NCBI GenBank assembly: GCA_030621645.1
Contig: JAUXHI010000003.1
Location: forward strand, 1 to 48,635
Reading direction: 5' to 3'
Origin: Mycoplasmataceae bacterium
GTDB taxonomy: Bacteria > Bacillota_I > Bacilli_A > Mycoplasmatales > Hepatoplasmataceae
DNA: 48,635 nucleotides
In this document: piece after piece, positions 42,001 to 45,000 of the stretch
How the letters are laid out: each line of letters begins with the position of its first letter
Position numbering within the stretch: the first letter of the stretch is position 1
Made by a program: the position numbers

Positions 42001-45000
42001 ATCAGGCGCCTTAACATTAGCTAATTGAGATAATGGTGTAGGCACATCGTAATAGTTAATTACTAAATTTGACACTAATGAAGGGTGTGCTCCAGTAGCT
42101 CTAATTTGAGCAAGTTTATTTTTATAGTTAGTTAGAGTTGACTCTAACTTTTGATCTAATAAATTTTTAAATTGTTCCATATTATTTTTCTTTTGAAATT
42201 ATTGTTTTGGGTGTTTCAGGGTTTTCAATAACATTAACAATGTTATTTTTAACATTCATATTGAATACTATTACATCAATATTACTGTCATTTAATATTT
42301 CAACAGCTTCTTTATCCATGACTTTTAAATCTTTATCAAGTAATTCTTGAAATGTAAGTTTATCAAACATAGTTGCTGAAATATTTTTTAGTGGATCTGA
42401 ACTATATACTCCATCAACATTTTTTTTTGCTAACAATATTACATCAGCATTAATTTCTAGCGCTCTTTTTACTGCGGCTGTATCAGTTGACACATAAGGT
42501 TTTCCTGTACCACCAGCAAATAAGATTACTTTATCATTTTCTAAATCTTCTTTTGCTTTTTCAGGATTTAAAGTTTGTGAAATAAATTCATAATCCAATG
42601 CATTTTGGATTTCTGCTTCTACTCCATTTTCTTTTAATAATGTTTTAAAAGCAAAAGCATTAATTATTGTTGCTTGCATTCCCATATAATCAGCCGATTC
42701 AGTATTTTCACCTAAACCTAATTCATCAGACAATTGTCCTCTGAATATATTTCCTCCACCAATTACAATCGCAAGTTCAATGTTGTACTTTTGTCTTAAC
42801 AATTTAATTTGATTTAATATATCAAAGAGAATTTCTTTGTCATAGGCACTTGAACTGTTGCCTAGCGCTTCTCCTGATAATTTTAATAGTATTCTTTTAT
42901 ATGAATTCATAAATTTTATTTTGCTTTGCTATTGACCCATTTGTTTTGCAACTTCTTCTGCAAAATTTTCTTCCTTTTTCTCTATTCCTTCTCCAACTTC
43001 AAATCTAGTGAAGTCAAGAATTTTTCCAGAACCTTGAAGGTCTTTAACTTTTTTAGAACTATCTTTAACAAAAGATTGTTCAAGAAGCACTGATTCAGAA
43101 AGTCCTTTTGTAACTTTGCCATTAATCATTCCTTCAACAACTTTTTCAGGCTTCCCTTCGATTGCTTGTGCTAATTCTTTTTTGGCTAAATCAGTTTCAT
43201 ATTTAATTATACCTTCTGAAATGTCGTCCATAGAAAGGAATTTAGGATTCATAGCAGCAATTTGCATTGCTATGTCTCTTAAGACCGCTTGATCCATATT
43301 TTCAGCTTGTATTAAAACTCCAATTCTTGAGTTTGCATGTTGGTATGATCCAATTGTACCTTTATATATAGATACTCTTCTAAGAGTAATTTTTTCACCA
43401 ATGATTGCAGTTAAATTTGTGATGTATGATCCAATTGTTTCTCCATCAATTTCTAATTTAAGTACTTCTTTAACATTAGTCACTCCTGCTTTAAGAACAG
43501 CTTTTGTTATTTCATTTCCAGCTTTAACAAATTGTTCATTTGAAGCCACATAATCAGTTTCAGAGTTTAATTCTATTAATGCCGCTCCATCATCTGATGT
43601 TGCTATAAATACAGAGCCTTCTGCAGCAATTCTTTTTGTTTTTTTAGCAGCTTTGACTATTCCGTTTTCTCTAAGTCATACTATTGCTTTGTCGATGTCC
43701 CCATCTGTAACTTCTAAAGCTTTTTTAACATCCATTATTCCTGCACCAGATATTTCTCTTAATTCTTTAATTTTTTCTATCATATGTTACTCCTTATTTG
43801 TTTGCCTCAGCAAGTTCTAATAATTCTGCTTTTTTAGAACCAGCTTTGAATTTAACATCTTTAGATCTTAAAAATTCTTTTAATTCTGTAACTTTCATTT
43901 TTGAAAGATCAACAGTTTTATCATCAAAAGTTGCTTTTGCTATAACTTTTTCTGCTTGTTCTTCAAGTTTAGCTTCAACTTTCTCATTATGTTCTCTTCT
44001 TTTTTCTTGTGTTTTGATTTCTTCTTTTTTCTCTACTTTTGAAGATTTATCTCTAGCCATTAATGTTCTAGTATTTCTAGATAAGAAATCTTTTGAATCT
44101 AAAAAAGATTCAATTACTCCTAACACTTTAACATTTTCGTCAGCAACATAAGCAGCTTTGGGTTGTTCCCCTTTAGCAATAGCAATAGCATCAGCTAATA
44201 CTGTAAATATTAATCCTACTGATTTTAATGAATCATCATTAGCAGGAATTGGGAAGTTAACAGCAGAAGGATCTGCATTAGTATCAGATATTGCAAATAC
44301 TGGTATTCCTCTTTTCTTAGCTTCTTTAATTGCTATCATTTCAGCAGGAATTGATGAAACAATAATTGCAGAAGGAGTTCTTCTCATGAACTTGATTCCT
44401 CCTAGTTGTCTTTCTAATTTAGTAAGTTCTCTTTCCATTTGAACTCCTTCTTTTTTAGTATAACCAGCATAGTTATCTTTAGAAAGTCTTTCTAATGTTC
44501 TAAGCTTTCTAACTGAATTTTTAATAGTTTTGAAATTTGTTAGAGTACCACCAAGTCATCTATGATTTACATAGTATGAACCAGTTCTAACTGCATTTTC
44601 TTTTGCGGTTTCTTTTGCTGCATTAGTAGTTCCCACAAAAAGGAACGTCCCATCTTTTTCAGCGATTTTTTGAATTTGTCTGTATGCAAATTCTAATGTA
44701 GGTAATGTTTTATTTACATTAATAATGTGTGTTCCATTTTTTGTTGAATGAATAAATGGTTTCATTGCTGGATTTCATCTTCTTGGCTGGTGCCCAAAAT
44801 GAACAGCAAATTCTAAAGCTTTTTCTCTAGAAACAATTGTTTTTCTTTTAATTTCCATGTTTGTTTTTTGTTTTTTTCGTCTTCAATATATTTCTAACAA
44901 AGGGACCTTTAAGGCACGTCCTTTGAATCCATATATTTGTTTTATTGGTTTAATTTAACAACCATATTATAGCAAATAAAAAAGCCCTAAGGGCTTTGTT

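What a model noticed while it worked through the whole genome (the two positions that open the first line are those of the whole stretch)
43794..44858. Hopping HeH/LEM module on uS2 and a PTS permease
Ribosomal protein uS2 and the PTS EIICB g00217 (C10:50299-52332) each end in a 40-aa HeH/LEM/SAP-type helix-extension-helix domain. The module is likely a portable nucleic-acid tether that this family grafts onto ribosomal, transcription and membrane proteins to hold nucleoid or RNA at the membrane. A bacterial counterpart of LEM-type membrane-chromatin tethers, shuffled between hosts within one family, would be new.
Evidence so far: All 4 aligned copies hit Pfam HeH (best 2e-9) and SAP. Profile finds it in 10/14 family genomes on seven host proteins: uS2 and PTS here; ABC ATPase N-terminus, sigma-A N-terminus, uL29 C-terminus, an aquaporin-type channel, and a 2-3-TM protein with one or two copies; not found in 74 other Mycoplasmatales at E 1e-4. 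G005/G007 uS2 lack it.
(Added by a program. Inside this text positions count along the whole contig: contig position 1 is position 1 of the stretch shown here. "Call 12" and the like, gene names such as g00115 and contig names such as C1 are that model's own, and its searches are not shown. The text may have been shortened before it was handed on; [...] marks where a part breaks off. The agent that wrote the report below was given it as the finding of a first reader that could run no searches.)

Follow-up and report, generated by a model that had tools for sequence, protein, structure and literature searches.

The report
Portable helix tag on mycoplasma proteins
A ribosomal protein and a sugar transporter of this tiny wall-less bacterium each end in the same small two-helix tag, which also sits on ribosomal and membrane proteins of many related bacteria and likely grips RNA or DNA, so it could help hold nucleic acid near the membrane, though that is untested.

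Summary
uS2 (43794-44858) and the PTS EIICB each end, after a charged linker, in a 38-aa Pfam HeH module above cut-off, predicted as helix-extension-helix. The module is conserved better than its linker in 12 of 12 orthologue pairs, so it is unlikely to be neutral. It sits on at least 11 hosts in the family. The claimed novelty fails: the module is not family-specific. Pfam HeH hits 78 of 300 other genomes of the class, mostly on bL20 and uS2 (28) of 89 hosts. Sister family Rho_N hits 35 of 186 other Mycoplasmatales, mainly on one conserved membrane protein. The scan saw uS2/bL20 tails before on other DNA. New here: an unrelated HhH module occupies the uS2 tail in other family members and also sits on bL21, FtsH and single-TM proteins. 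Best reading (0.55): a portable, weak nucleic-acid grip. A LEM-like membrane tether is architecturally plausible but untested; 14 of 20 membrane copies are neutral or acidic. Known domain, new variant.

The parts
43794..44858 (-). rpsB, ribosomal protein uS2 with C-terminal extension, 354 aa (table 4)
   Evidence: TIGR01011 273 bits; core nests in the family clade, support 99/92
44181..44816 (-). uS2 core domain (residues 15-226)
   Evidence: Pfam PF00318 E 1.2e-80
43911..44102 (-). charged low-complexity linker (residues 253-316; 17 K/R and 15 D/E in 64 aa)
   Evidence: 38% identical to the P0115 linker against 57% for the module
43797..43910 (-). HeH (SAP/Rho_N-like) module, residues 317-354, net charge +2, keeps the K-K pair before helix 2
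   Evidence: PF12949 above cut-off; AlphaFold pLDDT 89.7, helices 7-16 and 27-36; columns; shuffles
43790..43796 (-). rpsB stop codon overlapping the AAGGAG ribosome-binding site of tsf
   Evidence: sequence
42929..43783 (-). tsf (EF-Ts), next gene of the ordinary rpsB-tsf-pyrH-frr run; context only
   Evidence: gene names from my own recognition of the translations

Best explanation
uS2 and the PTS permease each carry a conserved two-helix HeH module on a charged linker, a portable tag found on many ribosomal and membrane proteins of this class, which likely acts as a weak, sequence-unspecific grip for nucleic acid. Shown: domain identity, terminal position behind a charged linker, conservation above the linker, patchy spread over many hosts, and occupation of the same uS2 tail by an unrelated HhH module in other family members. 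Predicted: the helix-extension-helix fold. Inferred: the basic face before helix 2 (K/R26-K27) contacts phosphate backbone. On uS2 the tag would sweep the solvent side of the 30S subunit and touch mRNA or rRNA. On the PTS permease it would sit in the cytoplasm after EIIB and give a membrane protein a nucleic-acid contact. It would spread by copying of gene ends and be kept wherever a small gain in nucleic-acid proximity helps. A dedicated nucleoid-to-membrane tether is one possible use, not a shown one.
For: Fold and clan: PF12949 above cut-off; PDB 2OUT E 4.9e-9; model aligns with SAP 1zrj (Z 5.7, rmsd 0.9, 36 aa), endonuclease VII (Z 5.3, rmsd 1.4, 38 aa) and Rho 1a62 (Z 5.2, rmsd 1.4, 38 aa), all middling and tied. 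Precedent: the isolated 40-aa Rho-N motif of RHON1 binds RNA, including rRNA fragments, in gel shifts (PMC3458557, passages); the Rho N-terminal helix bundle is positively charged and aids RNA binding (PMC11347177, passage). Hosts: 85 of 89 class hosts are ribosomal proteins, trigger factor or sigma-A. K27 is K/R in every column group, and K/R26 in 98-100% of ribosomal copies; both copies here keep the pair, with net charge +2 and +7. Selection: module above linker in 12 of 12 pairs; in one membrane family the module (61-69%) beats the body (33-47%). Exchange: HhH on uS2 of G009, G012 and G013 and on bL21, FtsH and single-TM proteins; HhH as a nucleic-acid-binding fold is established knowledge. 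Copying within a genome: a G429 small protein's module is 91% identical to that of its own uS2, above all 22 foreign uS2 modules.
Against: No binding measured. 14 of 20 family membrane copies have net charge <=0, against 53 of 74 class ribosomal copies >0 (kin not independent), and 75% have T/S/N at position 26. The f2 membrane copies are also mostly <=0. Ribosomal copies are only mildly basic (mean +1.3). The best Foldseek rows are protein-binding HeH domains (CDNF/MANF with BiP, SAP30 with Sin3; none at E<=0.001). Most family uS2 (9 of 13 read) have neither an intact HeH nor an intact HhH module, so the tag is dispensable there. The PTS fusion is a singleton: homologues in 10 other family genomes match only up to residue 630 at most and show no module.
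Confidence: 0.55

Rival explanations
1. The module is a protein-docking tag: copies on ribosomes, sigma-A and membrane proteins bind one common partner (a scaffold, chaperone or protease adaptor) or each other, gathering their hosts in one place.
For: True LEM domains and the MANF/CDNF and SAP30 HeH domains bind proteins and rank among the structural matches. Neutral or acidic membrane copies keep the hydrophobic core and K27. Hosts are very mixed: aquaporin, permeases, FtsH. Tandem arrays of 2-3 copies occur.
Against: Two unrelated folds (HeH, HhH) fill the same slot, which one specific partner would not easily accept. The two copies here are 24% identical and both basic. No conserved partner gene was seen next to the genes.
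Confidence: 0.22
2. One reading: the membrane-anchored copies are dedicated LEM-like tethers that hold the chromosome or RNA at the membrane.
For: Membrane anchor + linker + HeH recurs: many family hosts; one orthologous 3-4-TM protein in 24 of 24 f2 loci read, with the module as its most conserved part (0.56 against 0.34 for the body); and minimal proteins with a hydrophobic-basic N-terminal peptide, acidic linker and module. Basic residues after the last TM segment place the tail in the cytoplasm (rough rule).
Against: No single membrane host is shared by the whole family, and this genome has only the PTS fusion. Most membrane copies are not basic. No Pfam LEM hit. BAF is eukaryotic (recalled). 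Outside the family the top hosts are ribosomal proteins.
Confidence: 0.13
3. Neutral debris: phage-derived or duplicated gene ends that fuse in frame and linger without function.
For: Small phage ORFs named HeH/LEM domain proteins are the nearest listed matches to the uS2 module (about 45% identity, weak E 0.02-0.05). The tail state is labile across the uS2 tree. G004 has three identical tandem copies.
Against: Module above linker in 12 of 12 pairs. The uS2 fusion is kept in P0115 and, with the sister type, in 4 of 4 f13 genomes and 28 class uS2. Hosts are strongly biased to ribosomal and membrane proteins.
Confidence: 0.05
4. The uS2 tag replaces the lost mRNA-catching ribosomal protein bS1.
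For: No multi-S1 protein in 14 of 14 family genomes searched; Ca. Hepatoplasma lacks S1 (bioRxiv 2021.01.31.429008, passage); uS2 is the bS1 anchor (established knowledge).
Against: 4 of 5 genomes tested that have uS2 with the module also encode a roughly 470-aa multi-S1 protein. Most family uS2 lack any module although bS1 was not found in them. It does not explain bL20 or membrane hosts.
Confidence: 0.05

Closest known systems
Pfam HeH/LEM domain PF12949 (solved bacterial example PDB 2OUT, FluMu gp35/HI1506-7; small phage 'HeH/LEM domain-containing' ORFs such as Listeria phage A118 gp7)
   Same: Both copies pass the cut-off; profile match to 2OUT at E 4.9e-9; about 45% identity to the phage ORFs.
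   Different: Here it is a terminal add-on to housekeeping proteins; a PTS EIICB host was found only in this genome.
Rho_N-type tails on bL20 and uS2 of Acholeplasma-like and other Bacilli (NCBIfam PRK14537 'L20/unknown domain fusion'; earlier scan notes e1-1493859, e1-1242917)
   Same: Same design: intact ribosomal protein, charged linker, terminal module ending K-K-A-E-L; the uS2 module scores 33 bits on a profile of those tails; PRK14537 hits the tail weakly (E 0.0013).
   Different: The loop has the I/V-x-F/Y form of the HeH/phage type instead of G-Y-S; Rho_N cut-off not reached; in this family the module has spread to many membrane hosts.
Rho N-terminal helix bundle and the C-terminal Rho-N motif of plant RHON1
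   Same: Same fold (Z 5.2, rmsd 1.4 over 38 aa); RHON1 shows such a motif can work alone at a C-terminus and bind RNA (PMC3458557, passages).
   Different: 16% identity to Rho; no Rho ATPase or RNA-binding domain attached; binding untested here.
Eukaryotic LEM/HeH inner-nuclear-membrane proteins (emerin, LAP2, MAN1, Src1/Heh1)
   Same: Same fold class (emerin LEM Z 4.4-4.6); membrane anchor plus linker plus HeH in the membrane hosts.
   Different: No Pfam LEM hit, 13% identity, no BAF in bacteria (recalled); hosts are transporters with other jobs; most class copies are on ribosomes.
Other appended uS2 tails: NCBIfam PRK12311 and 'sunset domain variant' NF051451
   Same: Both families exist and score on the uS2 core, so swapped C-terminal domains on uS2 are already catalogued.
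   Different: Different appended domains (PRK12311 being HhH/DUF4332-type is recalled, from no call); here HeH and HhH alternate within one family.

Membership tests
Pfam HeH (PF12949) | score at or above gathering cut-off 28.9 bits | tested here: met
   29.4 (uS2) and 29.7 (PTS) in full proteins; 34.3 and 36.0 as tails
Pfam HeH (PF12949) | two helices joined by an extended loop | tested here: met
   AlphaFold2 model, pLDDT 89.7, H7-16 and H27-36; a prediction, not a solved structure
Pfam HeH (PF12949) | conserved hydrophobic core and lysine before helix 2 | tested here: met
   L10, L14, L30 in at least 90% and K27 in all of 20 family copies
Pfam Rho_N (PF07498) | score at or above 24.9 bits | tested here: not met
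   PTS copy 17 bits, uS2 copy no hit; met by class uS2 tails
Pfam SAP (PF02037) | score at or above 23.9 bits | tested here: not met
   uS2 tail 20.8 bits over residues 1-19 of the model; PTS no hit
LEM-domain membrane tethers | sequence match to the LEM family proper | tested here: not met
   no Pfam LEM (PF03020, accession recalled) row at E<=1 for either tail
LEM-domain membrane tethers | LEM-like fold | tested here: inconclusive
   emerin LEM Z 4.6 (rmsd 1.8, 38 aa), close to SAP, Rho and EndoVII rows; all Z<8
LEM-domain membrane tethers | integral membrane anchor with the domain facing the nucleic-acid side | tested here: met
   met for the PTS host (EIIC membrane domain, module after cytoplasmic EIIB, topology from established knowledge); uS2 has no anchor
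LEM-domain membrane tethers | binds chromatin, directly or through BAF, and holds it at the membrane | not testable with these tools
   needs binding and localisation assays
Ribosomal proteins with appended HeH/Rho_N tail (bL20/uS2 type) | intact core, charged low-complexity linker, terminal module with K/R-K-A-E-L | tested here: met
Ribosomal proteins with appended HeH/Rho_N tail (bL20/uS2 type) | descent of this fusion from the class-wide uS2 fusion | tested here: inconclusive
   core is family-native, 12 other family uS2 lack the module, module is intermediate in type; retention and regain both fit

The most novel reading that the evidence does not exclude
Wall-less Bacilli use interchangeable small nucleic-acid grips (HeH and HhH) as an addressing system: the same tags are grafted on ribosomes, sigma-A and membrane proteins so that RNA, ribosomes and nucleoid are held at the membrane. 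The conserved 3-4-TM Rho_N protein of the Mesomycoplasma/Mycoplasmopsis family and the minimal N-terminal-peptide/linker/HeH proteins would be dedicated bacterial counterparts of LEM tethers.
Probability: 0.15. Interest if true: 0.78.

Novelty: new variant of a known kind. Interest (0 to 1): 0.42.

Why it matters
The domain and its place on ribosomal proteins are catalogued, but I found no study of what these tails do (ten searches; open-access library only). This family shows two unrelated folds taking the same slots on ribosomal and membrane proteins, which narrows the function to something both can do, most simply gripping nucleic acid. How minimal wall-less cells organise chromosome and ribosomes at the membrane is open. 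The conserved membrane protein with this module in cultured mycoplasmas makes that question testable with one deletion and one binding assay. If the assays fail, this is a modest case of domain shuffling.

Tried and rejected
Family-specificity: PF12949 alone gave 0 of 186 outside the family in the order, which looked like support, but the family profile gave 3 of 187 and Rho_N gave 35 of 186; rejected. bS1 replacement: rejected. Recent copying between uS2 and PTS in this genome: 24% protein identity, 49 of 114 bases; rejected. Word-index searches found only the window's own protein for the uS2 module (1 of 44 candidates) and one module-less PTS relative; both are insensitive. Foldseek gave nothing at E<=0.001. 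A third copy on this genome's uL3 tail is suggested by likeness to the G008/G009 tails but has no Pfam support; not counted. The HisRS match in G011 and the DinB matches of the HhH profile were dropped as not appended modules, and one HhH match in a 15-aa frame as spurious. The weak hit of the f2 membrane-body profile in this genome (C18, E 0.02) is an unrelated-looking protein. Neighbours of the f2 gene (an RluA-type synthase in 16 of 24 loci) and of the minimal proteins gave no partner. Sequencing runs: no RNA holder listed; the one DNA run laid does not cover the module. No prediction of module-module binding was obtained, so that question is open. Five papers recalled as relevant were not held. 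PMC12839542 uses HEH for an unrelated ATPase insert.

Full report
Setting. The window is contig C2 of a 565-kb, 28.6% GC genome, 85% complete, read with table 4. Proteins of two relatives in the same family are named Candidatus Hepatoplasma, so the family (f1) is likely Hepatoplasmataceae (family name recalled). The finding is rpsB in an ordinary rpsB-tsf-pyrH-frr run.

Observation. uS2 is 354 aa: core 15-226, a 64-aa charged linker, and a terminal module that Pfam HeH scores at 29.4 bits (cut-off 28.9). The PTS EIICB on C10 ends the same way (29.7 bits). These are the only two copies found in the genome. A profile built from no family sequence scores the two tails 29.4 and 17.9 bits, against a best of 8.9 among 1000 shuffles each. 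Both stop codons overlap the start signals of the next gene, and an independent record, P0115, has the same uS2 linker and module, so an assembly artefact is unlikely. The PTS fusion has no second witness. AlphaFold2 predicts two helices joined by an extended loop (pLDDT 89.7). The profile matches PDB 2OUT at E 4.9e-9. Structural matches are SAP, endonuclease VII, Rho N-terminus, CDNF/MANF and emerin LEM, all middling and close together. The fold gives the clan, not the function.

Spread in the family. Pfam HeH hits 11 of 14 genomes at E<=0.05, 4 above cut-off. The family profile hits 13 of 14 at E<=0.01 (circular for its own members). Hosts read: uS2, PTS, ABC ATPase N-terminus (3 genomes), sigma-A N-terminus (3), uL29, two aquaporin-type genes, and five kinds of small or medium membrane proteins, some with 2-3 copies. 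Weaker matches are an amino-acid permease, a Bmp-type protein and a Rho_N-like unit on uL3. Of 13 family uS2 read, only this genome's has HeH. Its core nests in the family clade (99/92; 51 rows, one search). Cross-host identities in the family are 34-62% and the two copies here are 24% identical, so hopping is inferred from patchiness, not seen as fresh copies.

Not family-specific. I read 30 of its 43 matches: 24 are one orthologous roughly 300-aa protein with 3-4 TM segments, a Q/N-rich linker and the module near the C-terminus, 4 are uS2 of f13 and 2 are family uL3. The module is the most conserved part of the membrane protein, which is named 'Rho termination factor N-terminal domain-containing protein' in Mesomycoplasma and Mycoplasmopsis records. 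In the class, PF12949 hits 78 of 300 other genomes. All 91 non-own matches fall in 89 proteins: bL20 51, uS2 28, sigma-A 5, trigger factor 1, phage-like 1, and 3 small proteins made of a hydrophobic-basic N-terminal peptide, an acidic linker and the module. In G429 that small protein's module is 91% identical to the genome's own uS2 module: direct evidence of copying between a ribosomal and a likely membrane-bound host. Across 1.84 billion representatives the profile finds 1278 clusters at E<=0.001. The best 150 include many small phage-like ORFs, fungal Ish1 and SAP proteins, RDD membrane proteins and family relatives; 36 of 150 have a predicted TM or signal segment. As a control, none of 77 uS2 from mostly other phyla ends in the module (41 tails long enough to test, best 4.5 bits). 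Two earlier scan notes reported Rho_N tails on uS2 and bL20 in gut Bacilli; my reading was formed before and agrees.

A second hopping module. The uS2 tail carries HhH repeats in G013 (1), G009 (3), G012 (4) and a degenerate one in G008. The same HhH sits on bL21 (G008, G009), FtsH (G008), five single-TM proteins and three others. Two unrelated folds thus occupy the same host classes, ribosomal and membrane proteins, in one family. I found no paper on this, though NCBIfam already lists uS2 variants with other appended domains.

Selection and surface. The module is better conserved than the linker in 12 of 12 orthologue pairs, and better than the membrane body in one family. K27 is K/R in all groups. 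K/R26 is present in 98-100% of class ribosomal copies and in both copies here, but T/S/N in 75% of family membrane copies. Net charge is <=0 in 14 of 20 family membrane copies and >0 in 53 of 74 class ribosomal copies (5 uS2 modules and the Bmp copy fell under the score threshold and were left out; kin are not independent). This favours nucleic-acid contact for the two copies here and weakens it for many membrane copies.

Mechanism. Most likely (0.55) the module is a weak, unspecific nucleic-acid grip on a leash. Precedent: the isolated Rho-N motif of RHON1 binds RNA (PMC3458557, passages) and the Rho helix bundle aids RNA binding (PMC11347177, passage); an HEH extension on a bacterial Ku is noted in PMC11936186 (passages). 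Rivals: protein docking (0.22), dedicated LEM-like tether (0.13), neutral debris (0.05), bS1 replacement (0.05). The last fails because 4 of 5 tested genomes with the uS2 tail also have a multi-S1 protein. Nothing here measures binding, and module-module binding remains open.

Literature seen. Passages: PMC3458557, PMC11347177, PMC11936186, bioRxiv 2021.01.31.429008, PMC12839542, PMC6406644. Listing only: PMC10221047. Not held and only recalled: five look-ups, covering papers on prokaryotic Ku/HEH, LEM evolution, ribosomal-protein diversity and HI1506, which may already mention such fusions. No supplements were read; those of the bioRxiv ribosomal-protein survey are closed and could list fusions.

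Verdict. A real, selected, portable HeH tag. It is a member of Pfam HeH, not of LEM, SAP or Rho_N by cut-off, and works probably like Rho-N/SAP grips. The family-only claim and the novelty of the uS2 fusion are wrong. The PTS host, the HeH/HhH exchange and the recurring membrane-anchored forms are the parts worth testing. New variant of a known kind, interest 0.42.

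Noticed in passing
L229-L257 (G006, G008, G009, G010, G012, G013), e.g. 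L250:1435-2382 and L248:1-1785: A roughly 60-aa HhH module hops over the same host classes as the HeH module in this family: uS2 (1-4 copies), bL21, FtsH C-terminus, five single-TM proteins; the G009 bL21 and uS2 copies look closely alike.
   Followed up: partly
L268-L296, e.g. L268:1474-2307 and L286:745-1773: Conserved roughly 300-aa 3-4-TM protein with Q/N-rich linker and C-terminal Rho_N module in family f2 (30 of 49 genomes hit; 24 loci read), with a homologue in f13 (L260, E 6.6e-8); often next to an RluA-type synthase; no paper found.
   Followed up: partly
L264:4756-5124, L265:4634-4951, L266:5078-5419, L322: Minimal 105-123-aa proteins: hydrophobic-basic N-terminal peptide, acidic Pro/Glu/Val linker, module; in three loci beside a lactate-dehydrogenase-like gene and near a TetR-like gene; in G429 the module is 91% identical to the genome's own uS2 module.
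   Followed up: partly
window 45020-45736 (-): 238-aa charged, coiled-coil-like ORF between topA and rpsB with no Pfam match at E<=1.
   Followed up: no
L297:800-1090 (G000 C6, uL3 tail): uL3 has a long tail with two helical units like the G008/G009 uL3 tails that match Rho_N weakly; this copy has no such match.
   Followed up: partly
L339 (G000 C14:985-1377, -): Broken copy of the PTS gene's N-terminal part, 77% identical, 4 TAA stops inside.
   Followed up: no
L262 (G004 C1:237157-237585): Membrane protein with three identical tandem N-terminal module repeats; its G003 orthologue has one.
   Followed up: partly
phage hits H1-H25, e.g. Listeria phage A118 gp7: Small phage ORFs named HeH/LEM or Rho N-terminal domain proteins are the nearest listed matches to the uS2 module (95 records at E<=10, about 45% identity); a possible reservoir.
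   Followed up: no
proteins P0024, P0049, P0144, P0072, P0103: Other membrane-anchored multi-HeH or RDD-plus-HeH proteins from unnamed organisms, two with an N-terminal CxxC zinc-ribbon pattern and a C-terminal TM.
   Followed up: no
L024, L032, L039, L048, L114 (class family f16): Sigma-A with one or two N-terminal HeH modules outside this family, paralleling the Hepatoplasma sigma-A; this genome's sigma-A lacks it.
   Followed up: partly
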